A stretch of 64,000 bases of DNA from a bacterium (GTDB lineage Bacteria; Patescibacteriota; Minisyncoccia; UBA6257; UBA9933), in the NCBI GenBank assembly GCA_030693235.1, contig JAUYBE010000006.1:139601-203600 (forward strand). The letters are read 5' to 3'. This document shows, in pieces, positions 1,207-61,345 of the stretch. How positions within the stretch are numbered: the first letter of the stretch is position 1; each line of letters starts with the position of its first letter. The translations under genes and the position numbers were made by a program. Under the pieces are notes generated by a model. That model was not told where the DNA came from and did no database searches. It saw nothing but the letters and a program-made list of their open reading frames with translations.

Positions 1207-1214
1207 TAAATAGT

Positions 1215-1284
1215 TTTTAGTTATTAGTTTGCGGTTAATAGTTTCTAAGTTTTTAATTTTAGTTTTTAAACTATAACTAATAAC
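1215..1284. repeat. inverted repeat TTAGTTATTAGTT / AACTAATAACTAA (13-bp perfect arms)
   Basis: Direct reading. Lies between tRNA-Pro and the 3' end of rpmB (minus strand). Confidence 0.5.
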
Positions 1285-1323
1285 TAATTGACTAAAACCA
1301 ATGACCAAAAACTATAAATCGAC

Positions 1324-2241: not shown

Positions 2242-2653
2242 TATGCCCACAATCAGCCAATTAATTAAAAAGAGAAGAAAAAATACCAAGAAAAAAACCA
2301 AAGCGCCGGCAATGGGTTTGTATTTTAACACGCAGGACAATAAGCCGGTTTATTCAAATTCGCCTTTCAAGCGCGGCGTTTGTTTAAAAGTTTTTACGAC
2401 TACGCCGAAAAAGCCGAATTCGGCCATGCGAAAAGTCGCCCGGGTGCGTTTAACCAACGGCATGGAAGTGACGGCTTATATTCCCGGCGTTGGACACAGT
2501 CTTCAAGAGCATTCGATAGTTATGATAAGGGGCGGCAGAGTCAAGGATTTGCCGGGCGTTAAATATCACATTGTCCGGGGAGTGTTGGACGCCGGCGGCG
2601 TTGAAGGCAGAAAACAGGAAAGAAGCAAGTATGGGGCGAAGAAACCGAAGTAG
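2242..2653 (+). CDS. rpsL: 30S ribosomal protein S12
   Basis: [19 protein letters not shown]...[14 protein letters not shown] core. Start placed at [10 protein letters not shown]. Confidence 0.9.
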
Positions 2654-2732
2654 CTTTTAGGTTTTAGTTTTTAGGTTTTAGATAATAAATTTCTAACACC
2701 TAACACCTAACACTTAACACCTAATACCTAAC
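2654..2732. repeat. family A themed palindrome (TTTTAGG)n-loop-(CCTAACA)n abutting the rpsG start
   Basis: Direct reading. The 3' arm ends 1 nt before the TTG start at 2733. Confidence 0.8.
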
Positions 2733-3200
2733 TTGAGAAGAAAACGTAAATATAAAAAAATTCATCAACCCGACGTTCAATATAATAATATCGCTGTTTC
2801 GCGGTTTATTAACTATTTAATGAAAGGCGGTAAAAAATCCGTTGCCGAGAAATTATTTTACAAATCTTTTGCTAATATTCAAAAGGAAACTAAAACAGAG
2901 CCGCTTTCGATTTTCGAAAAAGCCCTTGAAAACGCCACGCCGCTTCTGGAAGTCGTGTCCAAGCGCGTTGGCGGCGCCAATTATCAGGTGCCTAGAGAAG
3001 TCAGGCCGGAAAGGAAATTTTTATTGGCTTGCCGTTGGATTATTGAAGCAGCTGCGTCAAAAAAAGGTAAACCAATGGCTCAAAAATTGGCCGAAGAATT
3101 AATCGCGGCGTCAAAGAACGAAGGCGCGGCTATAAAGAAAAAACAGAATGTTCATAGAATGGCGGAAGCAAACAGAGCCTTCGCGCATTTCGCCAGATAG
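2733..3200 (+). CDS. rpsG: 30S ribosomal protein S7 (TTG start)
   Basis: RRKRKYKKI...NYLMKGGKKSVAEKLFY matches the uS7 N-terminus. The first codon is ttg. Confidence 0.9.
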   Translation: MRRKRKYKKIHQPDVQYNNIAVSRFINYLMKGGKKSVAEKLFYKSFANIQKETKTEPLSIFEKALENATPLLEVVSKRVGGANYQVPREVRPERKFLLACRWIIEAAASKKGKPMAQKLAEELIAASKNEGAAIKKKQNVHRMAEANRAFAHFAR

Positions 3201-3202
3201 AT

Positions 3203-3275
3203 TAGTTTTTAGGTTTTAGTTTTTAGGTTTTAGATAAAAAAATCTAACACCTAACACCTAACACCTAACACCTAA
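3203..3275. repeat. family A themed palindrome abutting the fusA start
   Basis: Same motifs and orientation as 2654-2732. Ends 2 nt before the TTG start at 3278. Confidence 0.8.
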
Positions 3276-3277
3276 AA

Positions 3278-5428
3278 TTGCGTCAATATCCCTTAGAAAA
3301 ATATAGAAATATAGGAATAATAGCCCATATCGATGCCGGCAAAACAACCGTTTCCGAACGGGTTCTTTTTTATACCGGTGTTTCTCATAAAATCGGCGAG
3401 GTCCATGAGGGAGAGGCGATTATGGATTGGATGGAACAGGAAAAAGAAAGGGGAATCACCATCACCGCGGCGGCCACTACTTGTTTTTGGATGCCGACGT
3501 ATCGTCGGCCGCAGAATTACGCGGACTTGACGCGGACCGACGCGGAAGAAATCAAAAAAAAATATGAACATAGGATTAACATTATTGATACGCCCGGCCA
3601 TATCGATTTCACGGTTGAAGTTCAACGTTCATTAAGGGTGCTTGACGCTGCGGTTGTTATTTTTGACGGCGTGGCCGGCGTTGAACCGCAGTCCGAAACC
3701 GTCTGGCATCAGGCGGATAAATTTAAAGTGCCGCGAATTTGTTTTATCAATAAATTGGACCGGATAGGCGCTAATTTTGAGAAATCGTTTCTTTCAATCC
3801 AGGAAAGATTGAATCCCAACGCGATTGTCGTTCAAATACCGATAGGTCTGGAAGCAAATTTTGAAGGCATTATTGATTTGCTGGCAATGAAGGCTTTTTA
3901 TTTTGAAGGCGATCGCGGCGAAAAAATTATTGAAAAAGAAATACCAAACGAGTTAAAAGTTCAAAGTGAAAAGTTAAAAGTTCTATTAATTGAAAAAATC
4001 TCTGAAACCGACGAAAAATTGACGCAAAAATATCTTGAAGGAAAAGAAATCAGTTTTGAAGAACTTAAACAGGCGATGAGAAAAGCCACAATCAACAGTC
4101 AATTGGTTCCGGTTTTTTGCGGTTCGGCGTTGAAAAACAAAGGCGTTCAGTTGATGCTCGACGCCGTTTTGGATTATTTGCCTTCGCCGCTTGATTTGAA
4201 AGAAATCAAGCCGATTGAAGGAGCGCATCCGAAAACCGAAGAAAAAATTAATCGTCAACCGGCGGATAATGAACCGCTGGCGGCTTTGGCTTTTAAAATC
4301 GCCACAGACCCTTATGTCGGCAGCCTCACCTTCGTCAGAGTTTACAGCGGCGTTCTTAAGAGGGGATCTTACGTTCTGAATTCATCAAAGGGCAATCAGG
4401 AAAGAATCGGCCGGATTGTCCGAATGCACGCCAATCAACGGGAAGAAGTCGAGGAAATGTATGCCGGCGATTTGGGCGCGGCCGTAGGATTGAAAGGAAC
4501 TTCCACGGGCGATACTTTGTGCGATCCGGGCAATCCGATTGTTTTGGAAAAGATTATTTTCCCGGAGCCGGTGATTTCCGTCAGAATCGAGCCGAAAACG
4601 AAAGCCGATCAGGAAAAATTGGGTTTTGCCCTTCATAGATTATCAGAAGAAGATCCGACTTTCCGCATTAGCGGCGACCCCGATACCGGCGAGACGATTA
4701 TTTCCGGTATGGGCGAACTTCATTTGGAAATTATTATTGACCGGGCGAAAAGGGAATTTGGAGTTGAAGCGGATATCGGCAGGCCTCAGGTCGCTTATAA
4801 AGAAACTGTCAACGCCGAGTCCGAAGCTGAGGGTAGATATATCAAGCAATCCGGCGGTCGAGGTCAGTACGGCCATGTTTGGTTAAACGTTAAGTCATTG
4901 GAAAGGGGGAAAGGATTCGTCTTTGTCAATAAAATAAAAGGCGGTATTATTCCCCAGGAATTTATTCCGGCGGTTGAAAAAGGCGTTAAAGAAGCGTTAA
5001 GTAAGGGAATTTTAGCCGGTTATCCGATTGTTGATATTGAGGTGAAACTTTATGACGGTTCTTTTCATGAAGTTGACTCGTCGGAAATCGCTTTTAAAAT
5101 CGCCGGCGCGATGGCTTTTTTGGAAGCGGCAAAAAGAGCCAAGCCGGTGATTTTGGAACCGGTGATGAAAATTCAGGTAATCGCGCCTTTGGAATTTTTA
5201 GGCGACGTTACCGGCGATCTCAATGCCAAGCGCGGAAGGATTGAAAATATTTCAGATAGGGTTAATATTAAAGTGATAGATGTTAAAGTGTCCCTGGCTG
5301 AAATGTTCGGTTACGCGACCAAGTTGCGGTCAATGACTCAGGGCAGAGGAACCTTTACGATGGAATTCGACCATTATGAAGAAGTGCCATCAAATATTGC
5401 CCAGTTGATTATTGAAGGGAAGAAATGA
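3278..5428 (+). CDS. fusA: elongation factor G (TTG start)
   Basis: [17 protein letters not shown]-domain; 716 aa translational GTPase. Confidence 0.95.
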
Positions 5429-5436
5429 TAATAATT

Positions 5437-5508
5437 ATGTGTCATTGCGAACGAAGTGAAGCAATCTATATGTGAGATTGCCGCGGGCTTCGCCCTCGCA
5501 ATGACAGT
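5437..5508. repeat. family C palindrome GTCATTGCGA...TCGCAATGAC
   Basis: Arms gtcattgcgaacgaagtgaagcaatct / agattgccgcgggcttcgccctcgcaatgac. Lies between fusA and rplM. Confidence 0.7.
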
Positions 5509-5514
5509 TATTCA

Positions 5515-6295: not shown

Positions 6296-6360
6296 ACCTA
6301 ATTATTCTAATTTCTAATTTCTAAATTAGGTCAATTAGAAATTAGGTCAATTAGAAATTT
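6296..6360. repeat. themed palindrome (TCTAATT)n / (AATTAGAAATTAGG)n
   Basis: Direct reading of inverted tandem motifs downstream of rpsI. Confidence 0.6.
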
Positions 6361-9887: not shown

Positions 9888-10047
9888 AATTTTCAAGCCG
9901 ATAGGCGCTGAAAATTTTACTAGAAAGCCTTTACCCCTCACCTTCTCTATTGATAATTGTTTAATAATTATATAAGGTAGACGCAAGTCGGCTTCGCCTT
10001 ATAGACGTGGTAGGTGTAAATTTATTGGTGGAAAAGGTGGGGGGTGC

Positions 10048-10103
10048 TCAATGTGATAGTAAAATTTACTTCGCATTGGGCTCGTAAATTTTAATCACAT
10101 TGG
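10048..10103 (+). promoter_or_regulatory. hairpin in the rpsD leader ending 1 nt before the start codon
   Basis: Arms tcaatgtgatagtaaaatttac / gtaaattttaatcacattgg. Confidence 0.4.
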
Positions 10104-10104
10104 C

Positions 10105-10719
10105 ATGAAAAGATCTAAAGAAAAACTGGAACGTTCGTTGGGGATGAAGCTTTTTTTGAAAGCGGATCGTTGTAATTCGCCAAAATGCGCGATGGTCAGG
10201 CATCCTCAGCGTCCGGGTATGCATGGCGGAAAACGCCGGAGGGCGAAAACAGAATATGGCGATCAATTATTGGAAAAACAAAGAATAAGAGCAAGCTACG
10301 GGCTTCGGGAAAAACAACTGGCCCGCATTGTCGAAGAGTCTATGAAAAAAACGGGTTCAGTGGGCGAAGCGATTATCAGCTCTTTGGAGCGTCAGTTTTT
10401 CAATGTGATTTTTCGTCTGGGAATAGCGCCTTCACGGGTTGTTTCAAGACAATTTATCAGCCATGGTCATTTTTTGGTTAACGGTAAAAAAGTTACCATT
10501 CCTTCTTATTCGACTAAAATAGGAGACATAGTTTCCATTAAACCTTCTTCTCGCGAGCTCTTGATTTTTAAAGATTTGCCTGATAAGCTTAAAAAATACG
10601 AAACGCTGGAATGGCTTGATTTGGATAAAGAAAAACTGGAAGGCAAAGTAAAGTCCTTGCCGCGCGATATTGAAATTCCGTTTGATATAAATTTAGTGGT
10701 GGATTATTATTCTAAATGA
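10105..10719 (+). CDS. rpsD: 30S ribosomal protein S4
   Basis: SYGLREKQ...GHFLVNGKKVTIPSY... uS4 pattern. Confidence 0.9.
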   Translation: MKRSKEKLERSLGMKLFLKADRCNSPKCAMVRHPQRPGMHGGKRRRAKTEYGDQLLEKQRIRASYGLREKQLARIVEESMKKTGSVGEAIISSLERQFFNVIFRLGIAPSRVVSRQFISHGHFLVNGKKVTIPSYSTKIGDIVSIKPSSRELLIFKDLPDKLKKYETLEWLDLDKEKLEGKVKSLPRDIEIPFDINLVVDYYSK

Positions 10720-10790
10720 GTTTTTAGGTTTTAGTTTTTAGGTTTTAGATAAAAAAATCTAACACCTAACACCTAACACCTAACACCTAA
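10720..10790. repeat. family A themed palindrome abutting the rpoA start
   Basis: Same motif and orientation. Ends 4 nt before the GTG start at 10795. Confidence 0.8.
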
Positions 10791-12040: not shown

Positions 12041-12063
12041 TTAAAAAGTCGCAATAATTAAAT

Positions 12064-12153
12064 TCATACGAAAATACGAAAACATACGAAATTACGAAAA
12101 CTAACTTTCGTACATTCGTACAATTTCGCACTTTCGTAAGAAAATTTCGTATG
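12064..12153. repeat. family B themed palindrome (TACGAAA)n / (TTTCGTA)n whose 3' arm includes the tuf ATG
   Basis: catacgaaaatacgaaaacatacgaaattacgaaaa ... tttcgtacattcgtacaatttcgcactttcgtaagaaaatttcgtATG. Confidence 0.8.
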
Positions 12154-18556: not shown

Positions 18557-18744
18557 AAAAACAAGAATTTCAACAATTTCAAAATAAGCCATTGATCGAG
18601 CTTCAAAAAGAATTATTGGACTATCGCGAGAAATTAAGAAAATTGAAGTTTGATTTGGCGCAGGGTAAAGTTAAAAATATTAAAGAAATAAACGGGACAA
18701 AGAAAATAATAGCGCGAATAATGACAATCATTAATATAAAGTAA
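18553..18744 (+). CDS. rpmC: 50S ribosomal protein L29
   Basis: 63 aa coiled helix; [24 protein letters not shown]. Confidence 0.8.
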
Positions 18745-18818
18745 TTGATAATTGCAAAATTGCTAATTGAAAGATTAATTTTTCAATCTTTAAATCAGCA
18801 ATCTTTCAATCATATTTT
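18745..18818. repeat. themed palindrome AATTGAAAGATT / AATCTTTCAATT (family G) before rpsQ
   Basis: gctaattgaaagattaa...ttcaatctttaaatcagcaatctttcaat. A related copy lies at 22600-22643. Confidence 0.55.
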
Positions 18819-19050: not shown

Positions 19051-19118
19051 TTTTTAGGTTTTAGTTTTTAGGTTTTAGAGAATTTCTAACACCTAACACC
19101 TAACACCTAACACCTAAA
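19051..19118. repeat. family A themed palindrome abutting the rplN start
   Basis: Same motif and orientation. Ends 4 nt before the ATG at 19123. Confidence 0.8.
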
Positions 19119-20559: not shown

Positions 20560-20705
20560 GAATAATTCGAGAATAAATTCTCGATTATTCTAATTAAGAA
20601 TTAAGAATGCAGAATTAAGAATTAAAATGAATAATTTAAAAAATATTAAAACGCTAATTCTGAATTTATAATTCTAAATTCTTAATTAGCGAAATGAAAT
20701 TTCGC
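20560..20705. repeat. hairpin GAATAATTCGAGA/TCTCGATTATTC, then a themed palindrome (AATTAAGAATT)n, then a GCGAAATgaaATTTCGC hairpin abutting the rpsH ATG
   Basis: Direct reading of the rpsZ-rpsH spacer. Confidence 0.6.
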
Positions 20706-21089: not shown

Positions 21090-21180
21090 GCATACGAAAA
21101 TACGAAAACATACGAAAAATACGAAAACTAACTTTCGTACATTCGTACAATTTCGTACTTTCGTAAGAAAACTTCGTATG
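21090..21180. repeat. family B themed palindrome whose 3' arm includes the rplF ATG
   Basis: gcatacgaaaatacgaaaacatacgaaaaatacgaaaa...tttcgtacattcgtacaatttcgtactttcgtaagaaaacttcgtATG. Confidence 0.8.
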
Positions 21181-22129: not shown

Positions 22130-22603
22130 ATGCGAGAATTTAAAAAGAAAAGCGAATATAAGGAAAAAGTATTGGATATGCGTCGGGTTACGCGTGTGGT
22201 TGCCGGCGGCAAGCGATTTCGTTTTCGAGCGACCGTTATTATCGGCGATGAAAAAGGAAGAGTTGGCGTGGGGATAGCTAAGGGATTGGATGTCGCGCAA
22301 GCCATTGATAAAGCCAAAACAGACGCCAGAAAACATCTAATAACGGTTTTTTTGGAAAAACGAACTATTCCTTACGAATCTGAAGCGAAATTCAGCGCCG
22401 CGAAAGTTATTATTAAGCCCGCCAAGGCGGGTCATGGACTTAAAGCCGGCGGAGCGGTAAGACAAGTTTTGCTTTTAGCCGGGGTAAGAGACGCGACAGC
22501 AAAGTGTTTGGGCGGAACGAAAAATAAACTAACTAATGCGATGGCGACGATAGAAGCCCTGAAAAAATTAAAAAATTGCAAGATTGAAAAATTGAAAAAT
22601 TAA
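22130..22603 (+). CDS. rpsE: 30S ribosomal protein S5
   Basis: VTRVVAGGKRFRFRATVIIGDEKGRVGVGIAKG... Start is placed at the internal ATG at 22130 because the listed 21998 start overlaps rplR. Confidence 0.85.
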   Translation: MREFKKKSEYKEKVLDMRRVTRVVAGGKRFRFRATVIIGDEKGRVGVGIAKGLDVAQAIDKAKTDARKHLITVFLEKRTIPYESEAKFSAAKVIIKPAKAGHGLKAGGAVRQVLLLAGVRDATAKCLGGTKNKLTNAMATIEALKKLKNCKIEKLKN

Positions 22604-22643
22604 TCTTTAAATCTTTCAATTAGCAATCTTTCAATAGTTTTAT

Positions 22644-24367: not shown

Positions 24368-24460
24368 TAAAAGTTAAAAGTTCATAAAGTTCATAAAGTT
24401 TATAAAGTCGCGGATTAAAACACTTTATAACATTATAACTTTCAACTTTATAAACTAATA
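24368..24460. repeat. themed palindrome (AAGTTCATAAAGTT)n / (ACTTTATAA)n before adk
   Basis: aagttcataaagttcataaagtttataaagt ... actttataacattataactttcaactttataaact. Confidence 0.6.
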
Positions 24461-28570: not shown

Positions 28571-29833
28571 ATGTTAGATATTAATTTTATCCGTCAAAAT
28601 TCGGAAGAAGTCAAAAAAGGCGTTGCCGCCAAAAATGTAAATCCTCAATTAGTGGATGATTTTTTGGTTTTGGATAATGAATGGCGAGAGTTGGTCAAAG
28701 AAACCGATGATTTGCGGGCAGAACAGAAGAAGCTTTCCGAAGAGCGTAAAATCAATGAAGCAAAAGAATTAAAAAATAAAATTCAAAATCTGGAAGAAAG
28801 ATTGAAGCAAGTTGAAACCGAACGTCAGAAAATTTTATACCAATTGCCGAATTTGCCGTTAGAAGACGTACCGGTAGGCAAAAATGAAAGCGAAGATATT
28901 GTTTTACGCGAAGTGGGTGAAAAGTTAAGCTTTGACTTTGAACCGAAAGATTATTTGGAGCTCGCCGAAAAATTGGATTTAATTGACATTAAACGCGCTT
29001 CAAAAGTTTCAGGAAGCCGCTTCGGTTATTTAAAAAATCAAGCGGCGCTTTTGGAATTCGCTTTGATTAAATTAGCATTAGACACAGCGGCCAAACATGG
29101 ATTTACGCCGATTATTCCGCCGGTGATGATTAAAGAAGAAATGATGAAAGGAATGGGATATATTCAAAGTTCAATGTTAGACGAGGAAGTTTATTTTTTA
29201 AGAGACGATGATTTGGTTTTGGTTGGAACTTCCGAGCAGTCTCTCGGCCCGATGCATAGCGATGAGATTTTTGAAGAAAAAGATTTGCCCAAAAGATATG
29301 TGGCTTTTTCAACCTGTTTTCGCCGCGAAGCTGGTTCTTATGGAAAAGACACCAAAGGCATTTTAAGGGTTCATCAATTTGATAAAATAGAAATGTTTAT
29401 ATTTTCACTTCCAGAAAATTCATTAAAAGAACATCTGTTAATGCTGAAAATTGAGGAAGAATTAATGCGGGAATTAGGAATCCCTTATCGGGTTGTTCAG
29501 CTTTGCACGGGCGATATAGCTCAGCCGTCGGCTTCCACTTATGATATTGAGGCGTGGCTACCGGGCCAAAACAACGGCAAGGGCCAGTATCGTGAAACTC
29601 ACTCCACTTCCAATTGCACCGATTTCCAAGCCCGAAGATTAAATATCCGTTATAAACCCCTAAAACCTAAAACCCAAAACCTAAAACCTAATTACGTTCA
29701 CACCCTAAACGGCACCGCTTTCGCAATTGGCAGAATGCTTATCGCCATCATTGAAAATTACCAACAAAAAGACGGTTCGGTTTTAATGCCGAAAGTTTTG
29801 CAAAAGTACTTAGGATTCAAGAAAATTGAATAA
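28571..29833 (+). CDS. serS: seryl-tRNA synthetase carrying an in-frame family-A-like repeat insertion
   Basis: N-terminal coiled coil plus class II core (TCFRREAGSYG...HTLNGTAFAIGRMLIAIIENYQ). Confidence 0.85.
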   Translation: MLDINFIRQNSEEVKKGVAAKNVNPQLVDDFLVLDNEWRELVKETDDLRAEQKKLSEERKINEAKELKNKIQNLEERLKQVETERQKILYQLPNLPLEDVPVGKNESEDIVLREVGEKLSFDFEPKDYLELAEKLDLIDIKRASKVSGSRFGYLKNQAALLEFALIKLALDTAAKHGFTPIIPPVMIKEEMMKGMGYIQSSMLDEEVYFLRDDDLVLVGTSEQSLGPMHSDEIFEEKDLPKRYVAFSTCFRREAGSYGKDTKGILRVHQFDKIEMFIFSLPENSLKEHLLMLKIEEELMRELGIPYRVVQLCTGDIAQPSASTYDIEAWLPGQNNGKGQYRETHSTSNCTDFQARRLNIRYKPLKPKTQNLKPNYVHTLNGTAFAIGRMLIAIIENYQQKDGSVLMPKVLQKYLGFKKIE

Positions 29834-35911: not shown

Positions 35912-37480
35912 TTAATTTAAAATAACCACATACCCATTCTCCAGGATTTGATTTTTTTGTTCGGGTAAAATATAGAAGAGATTTTTCTCTTTTTGTTTTT
36001 CCGGAGTGAAAGTGTCGGTAATGAACATTACGGTTTGCGCCGGCATTGGGATACCGCGGACGTCAACACCGCCGGCTTCAACGATAACGTATTTTGGCGT
36101 TTCTTTCGGCAGAGAATTTAATTCGCGGCCGATTTGAACGTAATCGGCGGAAAAAGCTCCTTGAACATTGTAATTTTGTCCCCATTTAATGAAATAAGTA
36201 TTGTAGGCCTCAAACACAAGAATAGAAAGCAGAAAGTAAAAAGTAGAAAGTAAAAAAATTTTTATTCGTATATTCGTAAATATTCGTAATTTCGTAAATT
36301 GTTCGTAAAGCCAAACACCGCCAAAACCGGCTAAAATAAAAATTGGCGGAATCATTATAATCGCGCGGAGAGCGTGCGGCATACCTTCGTTGGAAACAAC
36401 AACTGGAAGAGCGGCGATAATTAGCCAAGCGAATAAAATTAAGAATGGTAATTTTGGGAAGTCCGACTTCCTTAATATTGATTTGGTTCCCAAAATAGTT
36501 CCTATTATAAATAAAATTCCGACCGGCCAAAAAAGTTCCGGTTTGCCCGCGTAATTATGGCGCCAATTATAATCGCCGCTGAAATTAAACATTCCGGCGG
36601 TCTTTAAAATATTAACTGTTAAATCTTTAATCGGGGCAGGAGAATTGAAAACAGAAATTTGGGTTGTTCGCCCGAAGAAATCCTGAGGGTTTTGCAGAAA
36701 ATATAATCCCAATGGCGCGGCAACAATAATAGCTATTAGAATATAGCCACTAGCCACTAGTAGTATTTTTTTACGAATTTGCCAATTTTTATTTCCGAAC
36801 CAGTAGTAAAATAAAATTGTTAAAATTAAAAGCGGCGTGGCGCGATAGGCGATATAAGTGTGAAAACCAAAACCATAGAAAATTCCACCAAACAAAGAAA
36901 AAAGTATAGCTCGCCCCTGTCCAGTCAACTGGACAAGGGATTGATTATTTTGATTATTTGGAGCGGTAGATTTTAACTTATTAAGAGACGCTAAAAGAAA
37001 ATATATTCCCCAGACAAGAAAGAATGGCGCCATTATCGCGCGAAAACCGATACGGGAAAAAAGAATATGCCAAAAGCTCACGGCGAGAAGAAAAGATGAA
37101 AGTAGGGCGATAAACTCCGCCTGCCTGTCTGGCGGGCGGAGTTTAAACAACTCTCTTGTTAAAAAATACGTTCCCAATACCGTTAAAATTCCGAACACCG
37201 CTGCTACGCTTCTCGGTACCCACGGTTCGTGGCCAAATTTAACAATAAAAAATCCGATGATATTCGGCCAAAGCCCTTCGCGGCCGTTATTTTCCGGATA
37301 AAAAACTTTTAAATTTCCGGTTTCCCACGCCTCTACGCCATTATTGGCGTAAATTGCTTCGTCGGGATAAAGTCCGGGCGGCAGTTCGACGATATTGTAT
37401 AAACGCAGAAAAGAGGCTATAATTAGAATAACAAAAACTATTAACCATTGACTTTTGACTATTGACGATAATTTGCTCAT
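35912..37480 (-). CDS. GT-C fold membrane glycosyltransferase (GT39 / ArnT / PMT_2-like), second copy
   Basis: LPPGLYPDEAIYANNG first-loop DE motif and many TM helices. Contains internal TACGAAA-family repeats and GC-rich palindromes. Confidence 0.6.
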   Translation of the reverse strand: MSKLSSIVKSQWLIVFVILIIASFLRLYNIVELPPGLYPDEAIYANNGVEAWETGNLKVFYPENNGREGLWPNIIGFFIVKFGHEPWVPRSVAAVFGILTVLGTYFLTRELFKLRPPDRQAEFIALLSSFLLAVSFWHILFSRIGFRAIMAPFFLVWGIYFLLASLNKLKSTAPNNQNNQSLVQLTGQGRAILFSLFGGIFYGFGFHTYIAYRATPLLILTILFYYWFGNKNWQIRKKILLVASGYILIAIIVAAPLGLYFLQNPQDFFGRTTQISVFNSPAPIKDLTVNILKTAGMFNFSGDYNWRHNYAGKPELFWPVGILFIIGTILGTKSILRKSDFPKLPFLILFAWLIIAALPVVVSNEGMPHALRAIIMIPPIFILAGFGGVWLYEQFTKLRIFTNIRIKIFLLSTFYFLLSILVFEAYNTYFIKWGQNYNVQGAFSADYVQIGRELNSLPKETPKYVIVEAGGVDVRGIPMPAQTVMFITDTFTPEKQKEKNLFYILPEQKNQILENGYVVILN

Positions 37481-37908: not shown

Positions 37909-37929
37909 TCGCGAATATTTACGAATTTG

Positions 37930-37998
37930 GAAGTGTCATTGCGAGGGCGAAGCCCGTGGCAATCTCATTAGATTGCTTCGCCTGCGGCTCGCAATGAC
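37930..37998. repeat. family C palindrome GTCATTGCGAGGGCGAAGCCC...GGCTCGCAATGAC
   Basis: One arm is near-identical to an arm of the 5437-5508 copy. Ends 9 nt before the ATG at 38008. Confidence 0.7.
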
Positions 37999-38007
37999 GA
38001 TATTATT

Positions 38008-48896: not shown

Positions 48897-48927
48897 AATA
48901 ACCGATCTTGAATAAATTTACGAATTT

Positions 48928-49599
48928 TCATTTTTTGATCACTAAAGATAAAGTTTTATCAAAATCTCTATTTTTTTTCCAAGATTTTTCAATTAATCGT
49001 CTTAATTTATTATGCGGAGCGCGGCCATAATCCGGGAAAAATAAAAATTTATCAAATTCTAAATTGAGTAAAACCGTGAATGCTTCTTTTATGTCCCAAA
49101 TTTTATTTTCTGAAAGTCCGCTATTTTCACATTTTTCCCAATAATATTTATGGAACATAAAATGCATTAGCTCGTGCATGGCTGTGTCAATTGCTATGTA
49201 TTTATTGCTAAACATTTTGACCGCAAACCATTCTTCTTTTATTTTATAACCAAACTTATCGGCAGAAGATAATACTCCTTTAACTGATTTATGGGGAAAT
49301 CGGTGTTTATGTACTTGTTCCAGTTTTTTAATAAAATCCTTTTCAATTTTTAACCACTCTTTGTTTATATCTTGAGCAAGAGATTTTAATTGCCTTTCTT
49401 TTTTATAAAGATATTCAATATTTTTTCTTATAACATTTTTTCTCTTTATTAGGGGTAATTTTAATAAATTTTCATTTGCTGGGATTATTTGTTGCGGAAA
49501 CCCCCGATCTATATTTCTTTTATATGCATTTAAAGCAATTAGATGATTTTCAATGTCTAAATTTTTATCAATAACAAATTTAATTATTTGTTTTTTCAT
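48928..49599 (-). CDS. hypothetical protein with an HExxH motif (MHELMHF)
   Basis: AT-rich 223-aa ORF with a candidate zincin-like motif. Confidence 0.3.
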   Translation of the reverse strand: MKKQIIKFVIDKNLDIENHLIALNAYKRNIDRGFPQQIIPANENLLKLPLIKRKNVIRKNIEYLYKKERQLKSLAQDINKEWLKIEKDFIKKLEQVHKHRFPHKSVKGVLSSADKFGYKIKEEWFAVKMFSNKYIAIDTAMHELMHFMFHKYYWEKCENSGLSENKIWDIKEAFTVLLNLEFDKFLFFPDYGRAPHNKLRRLIEKSWKKNRDFDKTLSLVIKK

Positions 49600-49607
49600 A
49601 AAGTTGG

Positions 49608-49678
49608 CTGCGGGGCTAGGAATCGGACCTAGATTTAGAGATTCAAAGTCTCTCGTGCTACCATTACACTACCCCGCA
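49608..49678 (-). tRNA. tRNA-Gln (anticodon UUG)
   Basis: The reverse complement is TGCGGGGTAGTGTAATGGTAGCACGAGAGACTTTGAATCTCTAAATCTAGGTCCGATTCCTAGCCCCGCAG. Anticodon loop is CTTTGAA. Confidence 0.7.
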
Positions 49679-50353
49679 ATTTCCCAAAATACCTTCTATC
49701 CAACCGCTAATTTTTCTGTTTAAATTAGTACTTTTGTTCACTAATATCCTTACTAATCCATAATAATTCTCATTCGTATTTTTTCTTTTCGTATTAACTT
49801 TGTTTCTTTTAAAATATACATATTTAAATTTATTTTGTGAAGCTTTAGTGATTTTTGACCAGTACTGGATGGAATCAACTACTTTATTTTTAGAATTTTC
49901 GTGTATGTAAATTTCATACTTTATATCATTTTCCGGTATTTTTAATATTTTACGCAACCATTCCATAAAAACTTTTATCATCATTGGATCGGAATTGCTA
50001 AAAGTTACTCCTTGACTAATATTATGCGGTTTTGATTTACTGCCTTCAGCCCAATATAAAGAAACTCCTATTAGCCATAATTCTCTATTTGAAATGTTTT
50101 TTATTTCCGAAATAGCTTTATTTTTAATGAGCCGGACTATTTCAATCCTTTTATTTCTTTTGGCGATAGCCCCGCGTTGCATACTAGCCAATTTCTTTTC
50201 TGTCAATCTTTGTTTTTGTTTTTTAGACAAACCAACCGATCTTAGCCATAAAGAAAGCGTTGATTTAGCAACCGGAATTTGTTTTAAAATTTCAGAATAA
50301 GAAAAACCCAACTTTCTTAAATTTATTGCCTTTTCTTTTGCTGTGGCTTTCAT
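49664..50353 (-). CDS. HTH plus LAGLIDADG-like protein (candidate homing-endonuclease-like); its 3' end overlaps the tRNA-Gln 5' end
   Basis: N-terminal HTH-like FSYSEILKQIPVAKSTLSLWLR. LIGVSLYWAEGSK resembles LAGLIDADG. The last codons (CGVV*) are encoded by tRNA acceptor/D-arm sequence. Confidence 0.3.
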   Translation of the reverse strand: MKATAKEKAINLRKLGFSYSEILKQIPVAKSTLSLWLRSVGLSKKQKQRLTEKKLASMQRGAIAKRNKRIEIVRLIKNKAISEIKNISNRELWLIGVSLYWAEGSKSKPHNISQGVTFSNSDPMMIKVFMEWLRKILKIPENDIKYEIYIHENSKNKVVDSIQYWSKITKASQNKFKYVYFKRNKVNTKRKNTNENYYGLVRILVNKSTNLNRKISGWIEGILGNCGVV

Positions 50354-50408
50354 ATGAACAACGATGATATATGTAAATTATATTATATCGTTGTTCGAAA
50401 ATCAATCA

Positions 50409-51519: not shown

Positions 51520-51590
51520 TTAGGTGTTAGGTGTTTAGGTGTTAGGTGTTAGTTAATTTCTAAAACCTAAAAGCTAAAACCTAAAAGCTT
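51520..51590. repeat. family A themed palindrome in reverse orientation, abutting the dnaX start on the minus strand
   Basis: gtttaggtgttaggtgtttaggtgttaggtgttag...ctaaaacctaaaagctaaaacctaaaagc. Orientation relative to the downstream gene is as for the other copies. Confidence 0.8.
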
Positions 51591-51656
51591 AAATTACATT
51601 TTACATTAAAACATCCACCCTTGACAAGTTTTGGCAGTCTGCTATCCTCTTAATAT

Positions 51657-53377: not shown

Positions 53378-53447
53378 GTTTTTAGGTTTTAGTTTTTAGG
53401 TTTTAGTGAATTATCTAACACCTAACACCTAATACCTAACACCTAAA
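53378..53447. repeat. family A themed palindrome abutting the ATG at 53451
   Basis: Same motif and orientation. Ends 3 nt before the ATG. Confidence 0.8.
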
Positions 53448-55668: not shown

Positions 55669-55764
55669 TCATACGAAAGTGCGAAAATATACGAAATTAC
55701 GAAACATAAAAACAACTTCGTACATTCGTAAAATTTCGTATTTTCGTAAGAGATTTTTGTAATG
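55669..55764. repeat. family B themed palindrome ending in the ATG at 55762
   Basis: tcatacgaaagtgcgaaaatatacgaaattacgaaa...cttcgtacattcgtaaaatttcgtattttcgtaagagatttttgtaATG. Confidence 0.75.
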
Positions 55765-57202: not shown

Positions 57203-57264
57203 GTTTTAGGTTGTAGGTTTTAGGTTTTAGAACCTAACACCTAACACCTAACACCTAACACCTA
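57203..57264. repeat. family A themed palindrome ending 0 nt before the ftsW ATG
   Basis: ggttttaggttgtaggttttaggttttagaacctaacacctaacacctaacacctaacacctaATG. Confidence 0.8.
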
Positions 57265-61301: not shown

Positions 61302-61315
61302 ATGATTTTATAATT

Positions 61316-61345
61316 TTGTCATTGCGAGCGAAGCGAAGCAATCCC
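61316..61345. repeat. family C element GTCATTGCGAGCGAAGCGAAGCAATCC (single arm/short form) upstream of typA
   Basis: Direct reading. Shares the GTCATTGCGAG...GCAATC core with copies at 5437 and 37930. Confidence 0.65.

What the first reader, a model, noticed from the sequence alone, without database searches (positions are those of the whole stretch)
2654..2732. Family A themed hairpins (TTTTAGG)n-loop-(CCTAACA)n placed exactly at start codons of highly expressed genes
Eight copies occur in fixed orientation relative to the downstream gene, each ending 0-6 nt before its start codon. They are 2654-2732 (rpsG, TTG), 3203-3275 (fusA, TTG), 10720-10790 (rpoA, GTG), 19051-19118 (rplN), 53378-53447 (the PBP gene), 57203-57264 (ftsW), and 51520-51590 inverted for minus-strand dnaX. 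One half-copy sits inside serS. The arms pair imperfectly with regular U·C mismatches in the mRNA sense, so the opposite strand does not fold equivalently. The 5' arm carries repeated AGGU (SD-like) and the 3' arm carries ACCUAA (anti-SD-like). No conventional SD fits between the 3' arm and the start. The hairpin may bring an SD-like element at the stem base next to the start codon, as a discontinuous or structured RBS. It may instead be an RNase processing or stabilising site between operon segments. I do not recognise this element as a described family.
Basis: partly seen in the sequence, partly recalled or inferred. Interest (0 to 1): 0.75.

Follow-up and report, generated by a model that had tools for sequence, protein, structure and literature searches.

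The report
Heptamer-repeat hairpin elements at gene junctions
The "themed hairpins" are real: about 70-base palindromic inserts built from 7-base repeats fill the gap between one gene's stop and the next gene's start in a tiny Patescibacteria genome that uses no Shine-Dalgarno sites, but close relatives lack them at the same junctions, so they look like REP-like insertion elements, not ribosome-binding sites.

Summary
All seven full copies and the half copy are at the stated coordinates. Each fills a stop-to-start gap and ends 0-4 nt before a start codon. Orthologues confirm the TTG starts of rpsG and fusA; the rpoA GTG start is less certain.

The SD/anti-SD reading fails. This genome shows almost no SD motifs, and a related Wolfebacteria 16S lacks CCUCC. 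The antisense strand folds at least as well as the sense strand.

Relatives with 75-88% identical DNA have 5 nt or overlapping genes at the same junctions. Others carry a hairpin of a different repeat theme, or the same variant one junction away. Gaps are either compact (mostly under 20 nt) or about 50-100 nt hairpins, as insertion elements give.

The same (TTTTAGG)n/(CCTAACA)n element, mismatch included, occurs in other Patescibacteria, Quinella, Cytophagales, Nitrospinota, Desulfarculaceae and a cyanobacterium. Orientation relative to transcription is biased (24:4 in low-GC contigs, 42:16 overall), not fixed.

Best reading: a hairpin-forming version of known intergenic heptamer repeats that behaves like REP or MITE elements. 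It folds out of the mRNA, so SD-independent initiation continues. A positive role in coupling or mRNA stability is not excluded. The mobilisation route and the conserved mismatch are unexplained.

The parts
2654..2732 (+). Family A hairpin, rpsL stop (TAG 2651-2653) to rpsG start (TTG 2733)
   Evidence: (sense -17.2 kcal/mol, z -3.9). Orthologue L001 has a 5-nt gap and an ATG start.
3203..3275 (+). Family A hairpin, rpsG stop (TAG 3198-3200) to fusA start (TTG 3278)
   Evidence: Identical over its whole length, loop included, to the 10720 copy. L001 and L003 have gaps of 5 and 4 nt.
10720..10790 (+). Family A hairpin, rpsD stop (TGA 10717-10719) to rpoA start (GTG 10795)
   Evidence: L045 has an A copy with a different loop and an ATG start; L088 has a 19-nt gap.
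19051..19118 (+). Family A hairpin, rpsQ stop (TAA 19048-19050) to rplN start (ATG 19123)
   Evidence: At the same junction L007 and L023 carry hairpins of other themes; L098 and L083 carry A-like ones.
53378..53447 (+). Family A hairpin, scpB stop (TAA 53375-53377) to D-Ala-D-Ala carboxypeptidase start (ATG 53451)
   Evidence: L027 has the same arms and loop but 21 nt fewer; L053 has a 39-nt unrelated gap.
57203..57264 (+). Family A hairpin (variant GGTTGTAGG, loop AGAACC), upstream gene stop (TAA 57196-57198) to ftsW start (ATG 57265)
   Evidence: L053 has no hairpin here (-1 nt, reading CATTACACCTAATG) but carries a near-identical variant at the next junction, ftsW|murG.
51520..51593 (-). 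Family A hairpin in the 5' leader of dnaX (ATG 51515-51513), inside a divergent 141-nt intergenic region
   Evidence: A promoter-like TTGTCA-18-TAAAAT ends at 51598, so the predicted transcript start is about at the hairpin's first base.
29659..29691 (.). Half copy, (CCTAAAA)n, in frame inside serS; it encodes a variable loop
   Evidence: Orthologues have a same-length loop of unrelated sequence.
12063..12142 (+). Same class, family B hairpin (ATACGAAA)n/(TTTCGTAC)n in the tuf leader
   Evidence: (-24.8 kcal/mol, z -5.8)
21091..21165 (+). Family B hairpin, rpsH|rplF junction
   Evidence: sense -25.1, antisense -35.0 kcal/mol
55669..55751 (+). Family B hairpin, mraY-like gene to next gene; L053 has -4 nt at this junction
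   Evidence: -29.8 kcal/mol, z -6.0
18742..18811 (+). Family C hairpin (TAATTGA)n/(CAATCTTT)n before rpsQ
22562..22635 (+). Family C-like hairpin before rplO; its 5' arm overlaps the end of the upstream ORF. Relatives carry family A here
6298..6354 (+). Tandem-repeat hairpin (TTCTAAT)n/(AATTAG..)n after rpsI
   Evidence: (I2)
20592..20687 (+). Tandem-repeat hairpin (AATTAAG)n/(AATTCTA)n before rpsH
24370..24449 (+). Tandem-repeat hairpin (AAAGTTCAT)n/(ACTTTATAAC)n after secY
   Evidence: z -3.6
1211..1314 (.). Tandem-repeat inverted arrays (TAGTTTT)n/(AACTAAT)n next to tRNA-Pro

Best explanation
Family A is one family of a wider class. These are short (about 60-100 nt), dispersed, imperfect palindromes whose arms are tandem heptanucleotide repeats. 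They are a hairpin-forming version of the intergenic heptamer repeats already known from cyanobacteria, Beggiatoaceae and Xanthomonas, and in genome dynamics they behave like REP or MITE elements.

Shown: they are gained, lost, replaced and resized at gene junctions on the time scale that separates genomes with 75-88% DNA identity. The genes they precede do not need them.

Inferred mechanism: they are co-transcribed with the operon. The two arms pair, so the inserted 70 nt loops out. The upstream stop codon (or the transcript 5' end) and the next start codon stay a few nucleotides apart at the base of the stem. In this organism initiation is SD-independent: there is no SD, start regions are A-rich and G-poor, genes are tightly coupled or overlapping, and some genes look leaderless. 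A self-folding insert is therefore close to invisible to translation and survives exactly at stop/start junctions. Versions that keep the mRNA G-poor and the hairpin meltable are the ones retained.

The element is not an SD-type ribosome-binding site. Any positive effect on coupling or mRNA end protection would be secondary and is not shown.
For: - The element is real and non-random.
- It forms a moderately stable interrupted helix and the start codon is left unpaired.
- Filled versus empty junctions. rpsL|rpsG and rpsG|fusA are 5/5 nt in L001, which has 88% DNA identity to the window. They are -4/+4 nt in L003. L002 carries hairpins of another theme at both.
- rplV|rpsC is 6 nt in the window but holds an A copy in L007. 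The ftsW-proximal A variant sits one junction over in L053.
- Most co-directional gaps are either compact (overlapping to about 20 nt) or hairpins of about 50-100 nt. A few longer gaps hold other sequence.
- Many themes share one architecture, in the window and in relatives.
- The window copies at 3203 and 10720 are identical, loop included.
- The same element occurs in 24 loci of species-representative genomes from several phyla and in 118 metagenome loci with GC 0.31-0.68.
- No SD is used. G is 10% at -10..-1 and at +4..+15, against 22% in coding sequence. A relative's 16S has no CCUCC.
- Sense-strand mismatches take the G-poor option: T.C 178 against G.A 60, and A.C 45 against G.T 20. The sense fold is weaker than the antisense fold in 10 of 10 oriented window hairpins and in 20 of 28 elements of other themes, p=0.005.
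- Precedent: heptamer repeats just upstream of start codons, with forward bias, in SD-less gaps including ribosomal-protein operons (PMC4679880). Heptamer repeats whose length varies between close relatives, some arranged as inverted pairs (PMC4692102).
Against: - No transposase, target-site duplication or other mobilisation signature was found.
- Arms are near-identical between loci and between genomes. The scpB|dacA copy matches L027 in arms and loop although the flanks are 79% identical. That requires active spread, gene conversion or sequence-specific selection.
- Copies sit flush against start codons even where the upstream side is free: dnaX in the window, and L004, L010, L017, L022, L069, L090 and L116. 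A purely passive model does not predict this.
- The T.C-mismatch version outnumbers both perfectly paired versions, about 58 against 18 and 16, in unrelated phyla. This is unexplained.
- Orientation counts are not phylogenetically independent.
- No transcript or expression data exist.
Confidence: 0.45

Rival explanations
1. Intercistronic mRNA processing or stabilising hairpin, like REP elements or selective RNA processing and stabilisation. The stem protects the upstream segment from 3' exonucleases and the downstream segment from 5'-end-dependent decay, setting protein ratios within operons.
For: The elements sit at operon junctions and in 5' leaders. The predicted dnaX promoter puts the transcript start at the first base of the hairpin. 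Folds are significantly stable compared with shuffles. Intergenic stem-loops with this role are documented in Clostridium cellulolyticum (PMC4423207 and PMC10311766; only their abstracts were seen). Arm sequence is more conserved than the flanks.
Against: Close relatives lack the hairpin at the same junctions of the same conserved operons. The sense RNA is usually the weaker fold, and A.C is preferred to G.U, the opposite of selection for a stable RNA stem. There is no U-tract and no transcript data.
Confidence: 0.2
2. Positive translational coupling device for an SD-less ribosome. The stem juxtaposes stop and start, so a terminating ribosome melts the lower stem, exposes the G-free, CA-rich 3' arm and the start codon, and reinitiates across the hairpin in a shunt-like way. 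Alternatively, the helix docks where the SD-anti-SD helix normally sits.
For: Stop and start both lie 0-6 nt from the stem base. The genome lacks SDs and relies on overlapping or adjacent genes. The helix is imperfect and meltable. Three of the seven downstream genes use TTG or GTG where orthologues have ATG.
Against: Copies in 5' leaders have no upstream cistron (dnaX; tuf in L017). Hairpin-free junctions work in relatives. Other themes share no sequence. Quinella and L083 carry the element in reverse, followed by a normal SD. Nothing has been tested.
Confidence: 0.12
3. Binding array for a protein that reads heptad units on RNA or single-stranded DNA. This could be a post-transcriptional regulator, as proposed for TAACTGA repeats, or the enzyme that mobilises the element.
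For: There is strict 7-nt periodicity. The mismatch and the 8+6-nt substructure of the 5' arm are conserved across genomes. The same unit occurs across phyla. MacGregor 2015 made a parallel proposal.
Against: Dozens of unrelated themes share the architecture, so no single sequence-specific reader explains the class. No candidate protein was identified.
Confidence: 0.1
4. One reading: a structured or discontinuous RBS. SD-like AGGU in the 5' arm is brought next to the start codon, and the ACCUAA 3' arm acts as an anti-SD mimic.
For: AGGU and ACCU motifs are present, and the hairpin abuts the start codon.
Against: SD motifs are essentially absent genome-wide. A related 16S lacks CCUCC. Families B and C and others have no AGG/CCU core. 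Orthologues lack the hairpin. In SD-using Quinella the element is followed by a separate genuine SD.
Confidence: 0.03
5. DNA-level role or by-product only: replication-slippage hot spot, cruciform or supercoiling site, recombination site or contingency locus. The transcript structure would be irrelevant.
For: Heptamer repeats are the most over-represented long simple repeats in many bacteria and are attributed to polymerase slippage (Mrazek 2007, as cited). Unit number varies between relatives. Regular mismatches would protect a long palindrome from hairpin-cleaving nucleases; this is inference.
Against: Orientation follows the transcription direction, including the flipped dnaX copy inside a minus-strand block. 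Placement is tied to start codons.
Confidence: 0.1

Closest known systems
Intergenic TAACTGA heptamer direct repeats of Beggiatoaceae, cyanobacteria and Bacteroidetes (MacGregor 2015, PMC4679880)
   Same: Both have 7-nt units that carry stop codons. Both lie within a few nucleotides upstream of start codons, mostly in forward orientation, in gaps without an SD, including ribosomal-protein operons. Both have a patchy cross-phylum distribution and unknown function.
   Different: The TAACTGA repeats are direct repeats with no predicted structure. Here two different heptamers form inverted arrays that pair. The sequence and the host phyla differ, and many themes coexist here.
Cyanobacterial STRR repeats, long simple sequence repeats, and the GGGAATC / GGGGA(T/C)T repeats of Xanthomonas and Nostoc (Rehm 2015, PMC4692102; Mrazek 2007 and Mazel 1990 as cited there)
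   Same: Both are intergenic heptamer arrays whose length and sequence vary between close relatives at the same junction. Occasional inverted pairs are reported.
   Different: Those repeats are G-rich and can form quadruplexes, are not flush with start codons, and are not consistently hairpins.
REP / BIME / REPIN elements mobilised by RAYT transposases (PMC3116915 and PMC3733652; only abstracts seen)
   Same: Both are dispersed imperfect palindromes in intergenic parts of operons. Both are co-transcribed, occur as several families per genome, and show filled and empty sites between relatives. Copies stay similar to each other.
   Different: The elements here have no GTAG or CGTC tag. Their arms are tandem heptads, they are AT-rich, and no RAYT was seen. 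The host is a small Patescibacteria genome.
MITEs such as Neisseria Correia elements
   Same: Both are short non-autonomous inverted-repeat inserts next to gene starts that are transcribed into hairpins.
   Different: From my own knowledge, Correia elements have defined terminal inverted repeats and a TA target-site duplication. No duplication is evident here, and the internal heptad structure is not a MITE feature.
Intercistronic stem-loops of selective RNA processing and stabilisation (Clostridium cellulolyticum cip-cel operon; PMC4423207)
   Same: This is a possible way of working: a stem-loop between cistrons that tunes segment stability.
   Different: Those are single-locus structures, not a dispersed repeat family. 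No processing data exist here.

Membership tests
Any Rfam family | Match to a curated covariance model at its gathering score | tested here: not met
   The window gives only 3 tRNAs. A permissive scan of 2600-3350 gives only miRNA-hairpin noise at 17-22 bits, against gathering scores of 66-91.
Long simple sequence repeats / intergenic heptamer repeats (Mrazek 2007; STRR; TAACTGA class) | Tandem copies of a 5-11 nt unit, longer than chance, located between genes | tested here: met
   TRF finds period 7 with 3.9-5.7 copies per arm. The motif counts are 23 and 26 matches against 0.01 and 0.45 expected. All full copies are intergenic.
Long simple sequence repeats / intergenic heptamer repeats | Copy number and sequence vary between close relatives at the same locus | tested here: met
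   scpB|dacA is 73 nt in the window and 52 nt in L027. At rpsD|rpoA the loop and unit number differ from L045.
REP / REPIN | Imperfect palindrome of 20-40 bp with a conserved GTAG or CGTC tag at one end | tested here: not met
   The 5' flanks read GTAG, ATTAG, TGAG, TAAG, TAAG, TCAG and AAGC. There is no constant tag, and the arms are about 30 nt of heptads.
REP / REPIN | A RAYT (Y1 transposase) gene in the genome | tested here: inconclusive
   None appears among 30 window ORFs scanned with Pfam. The rest of the genome could not be retrieved.
MITE (IS-derived) | Terminal inverted repeats plus a target-site duplication at filled versus empty sites | tested here: not met
   The arms act as inverted repeats. 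Eight filled/empty comparisons show no duplication beyond what the repeat unit itself supplies.
Shine-Dalgarno ribosome-binding site | Purine-rich motif complementary to the 16S CCUCC tail, 5-10 nt upstream of the start, used genome-wide | tested here: not met
   Only 5 of 67 start regions contain any SD 4-mer. A Wolfebacteria 16S tail lacks CCUCC. The 16S of this genome itself was not available.
Intrinsic terminator | GC-rich stem followed by a U-tract | tested here: not met
   The arms are AT-rich and are followed by an A-rich spacer and the start codon. The consensus scan around the dnaX copy reports no terminator at the element.
TIGR stem-loop arrays (TIGR-Tas) | Clustered arrays of stem-loops carrying box C / box D motifs and two spacers, next to a Tas (Nop-domain) gene | tested here: not met
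   The copies are solitary and dispersed at housekeeping gene junctions. No spacer-like unique sequence lies between the heptad arms. The definition comes from PMC12045711. No Nop-domain hit appears among the ORFs scanned.

The most novel reading that the evidence does not exclude
In Patescibacteria that have lost SD/anti-SD pairing, heptad-repeat hairpins are a selected translational coupling module. The stem brings the upstream stop codon (or the mRNA 5' end) next to the following start codon. Ribosomes then reinitiate across a looped-out 70-nt insert, a bacterial analogue of ribosome shunting, or the helix docks where the SD-anti-SD helix would normally sit. The deliberately mismatched, G-poor sense strand keeps the stem meltable.
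Probability: 0.12. Interest if true: 0.85.

Novelty: new variant of a known kind. Interest (0 to 1): 0.55.

Why it matters
If these are insertion elements, genomes of about 1 Mb that are thought to be streamlined tolerate dozens of them inside their most conserved operons. That would mark out the rules of SD-independent translation: which inserts are invisible to a ribosome that relies on coupling and on unstructured, G-poor start regions.

The class also joins scattered reports of unexplained heptamer repeats next to start codons (Beggiatoaceae, Nostoc, Xanthomonas) to a clear, testable architecture. That architecture has filled and empty sites, a conserved mismatch and a cross-phylum family.

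On the practical side, these inserts will mislead gene callers and RBS models for Patescibacteria. They are also convenient strain-level markers. If instead they turn out to be coupling or stability modules, they would be a new kind of translational signal.

Tried and rejected
- The repeat finder with an 8-nt seed missed the elements, because a mismatch falls every 7 nt. I replaced it with TRF plus my own arm-pairing script.
- Rfam at gathering and at permissive thresholds found nothing.
- Literal sequence searches of the literature returned only bisulfite primers.
- Searches for Patescibacteria together with hairpin, palindrome or SD terms found no prior description.
- TIGR-Tas arrays were considered and rejected.
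- I tried to extend to the rest of the source genome with the look-up of encoding contigs. Four proteins, including the 100%-identical S7, were not on record, so no genome-wide count exists for this genome.
- I looked for target-site duplications at eight filled/empty pairs. None was convincing. One empty site in L053 keeps a solo CACCTAA unit.
- G-avoidance next to the start codon cannot explain the G-arm-first, C-arm-second polarity, because that polarity is unchanged by reverse complementation. Only the choice of mismatch (T.C against G.A, A.C against G.T) distinguishes the strands.
- A terminator reading was rejected because there is no U-tract.
- The viral collection gave a single, unrelated hit.
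- I did not build a covariance model. The repeat arms align ambiguously, and the pattern and TRF searches had already recovered the family.

Full report
OBSERVATION

The window comes from a Patescibacteria genome close to Candidatus Wolfebacteria. Its S7 protein is 100% identical to one from an NCBI MAG and 78-85% identical to named Wolfebacteria proteins. The arm motifs occur 23 and 26 times, against 0.01 and 0.45 expected from shuffles. TRF reports period-7 arrays for every arm.

Pfam confirms the flanking genes: rpsL, rpsG, fusA, rpsD, rpoA, rpsQ, rplN, scpB, a D-Ala-D-Ala carboxypeptidase, ftsW, dnaX, and serS for the half copy. Each element begins 0-6 nt after the upstream stop and ends 0-4 nt before the start. 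Orthologues that begin with ATG at the same codon and have the same N-termini confirm the TTG starts of rpsG and fusA. The rpoA GTG is the first in-frame start codon, and L045 has ATG at the matching position.

In register, each 14 nt of stem has 11 Watson-Crick pairs and 3 U.C mismatches, as read directly from the sequence. The 5' arm is really TTTTAGG alternating with TTTTAGT. RNAfold gives -17 to -27 kcal/mol for the sense strand (z -3.9 to -6.8) and leaves the start codon unpaired. The antisense strand folds at -22 to -31.

WHAT SURROUNDS IT

Family A is not alone. The same window holds hairpins of identical architecture but other repeat units. These are (ATACGAAA)n/(TTTCGTAC)n at the tuf leader, at rpsH|rplF and after the mraY-like gene; (TAATTGA)n/(CAATCTTT)n before rpsQ and before rplO; and others at 6298, 20592, 24370 and 1211.

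The genome has essentially no Shine-Dalgarno sites. Only 5 of the 67 start regions listed contain any SD 4-mer. Start regions are A-rich and G-poor: G is 10% at -10..-1 and at +4..+15, against 22% in coding sequence. Many genes overlap or lie 1-10 nt apart. Several appear leaderless. The only 16S gene I could reach, from a Wolfebacteria MAG that also carries family A, ends ...GUGCGUGGACCAAUUAAUAAAAAA, with no CCUCC in the following 700 nt. The lack of an SD after the hairpin is therefore the rule in this genome, and the SD/anti-SD resemblance of the arms has no partner to act on.

COMPARATIVE EVIDENCE

I fetched syntenic loci through S7 homologues and through motif scans. I then located each orthologous junction with tblastn. 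The result is a pattern of filled and empty sites:

- rpsL|rpsG and rpsG|fusA are 79 and 77 nt (family A) in the window. They are 5 and 5 nt in L001 (88% DNA identity) and -4 and +4 nt in L003. L002 has 90- and 75-nt hairpins of a different theme.
- rplV|rpsC is 6 nt in the window but a 75-nt A copy in L007.
- rplW|rplB, rplC|rplD, rplM|rpsI and dacA|mraY are compact in the window. In relatives they are filled with hairpins of other themes.
- The junction before ftsW is filled in the window and -1 nt in L053. L053 instead carries a near-identical A variant (GGTTGTGGG, loop AGAACC) at the next junction, ftsW|murG, which is -4 nt in the window.
- rpsD|rpoA (with L045) and scpB|dacA (with L027) are the junctions where a close relative shares an A copy, with different loop or unit numbers. 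Distant lineages also carry A-like hairpins at rpsL|rpsG (L113) and rpsQ|rplN (L098, L083).
- Most co-directional gaps are either compact (overlapping to about 20 nt) or hairpins of about 50-100 nt.

This is how insertion elements behave. It shows the hairpin is not needed to express these genes. No target-site duplication is evident, and no transposase was found among 30 ORFs scanned.

DISTRIBUTION

An exact 28-base pattern for the element hit 24 loci in species-representative genomes. The hosts were Wolfebacteria, Yanofskybacteria, Harrisonbacteria, other Patescibacteria, a Quinella MAG (9 contigs), Cytophagales, Nitrospinota, Desulfarculaceae and Geminocystis.

A degenerate pattern hit 118 metagenome loci with GC 0.31-0.68. 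In the TRF-based tally of 111 unique A-type elements, the T.C-mismatch form is about three times as common as either perfectly paired form (58 against 18 and 16).

My TRF-based detector found 183 tandem-repeat hairpins in the held loci, about 70 of them with other themes. Genomes that carry family A usually carry other families too.

ORIENTATION AND PLACEMENT

Relative to flanking genes, mismatch-type elements are forward in 24 cases and reverse in 4 in contigs with GC of 0.42 or less (binomial p=2e-4). The counts are 10 to 9 at intermediate GC, 8 to 3 at high GC, and 42 to 16 overall. These counts are not phylogenetically independent.

In Quinella, and in the GC-0.61 contig L083, the element is mostly reversed and is followed by a genuine SD. 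At least eight forward copies are within 22 nt of a start codon although no gene ends within about 190 nt upstream. For dnaX, a promoter-like site places the transcript start at the first base of the hairpin.

STRAND ASYMMETRY

Across oriented elements of all themes, sense-strand mismatches favour the G-poor alternative: T.C 178 against G.A 60, and A.C 45 against G.T 20. Accordingly, the sense RNA folds less stably than the antisense RNA in 10 of 10 oriented window hairpins. The same holds in 20 of 28 elements of other themes (means -21.6 and -26.2 kcal/mol, Wilcoxon p=0.005).

Selection for a maximally stable RNA stem would prefer G.U to A.C, so this argues against a pure stabiliser role. It fits the genome-wide avoidance of G around start codons. 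The polarity of a G-bearing 5' arm and a C-bearing 3' arm is unchanged by reverse complementation, so it does not explain the orientation bias.

INTERPRETATION

The best-supported reading (about 0.45) is this. These are dispersed, REP- or MITE-like palindromic elements built from heptanucleotide repeats. They are co-transcribed, and their self-pairing loops the insert out. Stop codon (or 5' end) and start codon therefore stay adjacent, and SD-independent initiation proceeds as it does at hairpin-free junctions. That explains several findings:

- only hairpin-forming inserts occupy these junctions;
- they are flush at both ends;
- themes are interchangeable;
- relatives do without them.

The turnover and the lack of SDs are shown. 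The fold-out tolerance mechanism is inferred.

This reading does not explain four things: the near-identity of arms between loci and genomes, the excess of the mismatched form, start-flush placement where upstream space is free, and how the elements spread. These points keep functional rivals alive. The rivals are an intercistronic stabiliser or processing site (0.2), a selected coupling or shunt module (0.12), a heptad-reading protein site (0.1) and a DNA-level role (0.1). The SD-like RBS idea is left at about 0.03.

COMPARISON WITH KNOWN SYSTEMS

The closest described phenomenon is the TAACTGA heptamer direct repeats found just upstream of start codons in Beggiatoaceae, cyanobacteria and Bacteroidetes (PMC4679880). 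Other relatives are the heptamer repeats of Nostoc and Xanthomonas (PMC4692102; bioRxiv 10.1101/2022.06.06.494920).

In dynamics the elements resemble REP/REPIN elements and MITEs. They fail those families' defining tests: no GTAG or CGTC tag, no target-site duplication, and no RAYT seen. TIGR stem-loop arrays of Patescibacteria (PMC12045711) are clustered, carry box C/D motifs and are linked to Tas genes, so they are a different thing.

I found no description of inverted heptad-array hairpins at stop/start junctions, or of this sequence. I rate it a new variant of a known kind, of moderate interest.

Noticed in passing
window 29659-29691: The (CCTAAAA)n half copy sits in frame in a variable surface loop of SerRS (KPLKPKTQNLKPN). 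Orthologues in L058 and L011 have a same-length loop of unrelated sequence (RSQKLDVKGQGLE), so the repeat replaced the loop sequence without changing its length.
   Followed up: partly
L024 1187-2751 (same sequence in L065): The 16S rRNA of a Wolfebacteria MAG ends ...GUGCGUGGACCAAUUAAUAAAAAA, with no CCUCC anti-SD within 700 nt downstream. A family A element lies 12 nt upstream of the 16S 5' end in reverse orientation.
   Followed up: partly
window 5429-5514, 37909-38007, 61302-61345: A different GC-rich palindromic repeat (GTCATTGCGAgcGAAGC...GCAATGAC) fills other gaps, for example fusA|rplM. L001 has a heptamer hairpin at that junction, and L002 and L003 have 5-7 nt.
   Followed up: partly
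window 9888-10104; L045 (junctions g8151|g9471 and rpoA|rplQ): An intergenic element of about 215 nt ends ...AATCACATTGGC directly at the rpsD ATG. L045 has two copies at other junctions, each again ending ...CATTGGC-ATG. This is a second kind of insert that supplies the sequence immediately upstream of a start codon.
   Followed up: no
window 32366(-)/34229(+), 59520(-), 51657(+): TATAAT-like hexamers lie only about 7-12 nt before the ATG; one divergent gene pair is separated by 21 nt. This suggests leaderless mRNAs.
   Followed up: partly
window 2733, 3278, 10795: Three of the seven genes behind a family A hairpin start with TTG or GTG, while orthologues have ATG at the same codon: rpsG and fusA in hairpin-free L001, and rpoA in L045, which itself carries an A copy. 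Non-ATG starts also follow the element in L022, L088, L113 and L116.
   Followed up: partly
L053, junction before ftsW: The empty junction reads CATTACACCTAATG. It contains one solo CACCTAA unit that adds two codons to the upstream gene. This may be a footprint of a lost hairpin, or a seed for one.
   Followed up: no
window 36223-36309: Two direct-repeat arrays (TAGAAAG and TATTCGTA units) lie inside ORF 35912-37480(-), which has no Pfam hit. They do not form a hairpin (z +0.96).
   Followed up: partly
window 48900-50400: A low-GC block (0.33, with reversed GC skew) next to tRNA-Gln holds two minus-strand ORFs without Pfam hits. It may be a small foreign island.
   Followed up: no
L136, tuf|rpsJ junction: A relative has only a direct heptamer array, TAG AATTTAG AAATTAG (CGAGTAG)x4, with no inverted partner. 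Direct-repeat and hairpin forms therefore coexist in this lineage.
   Followed up: no
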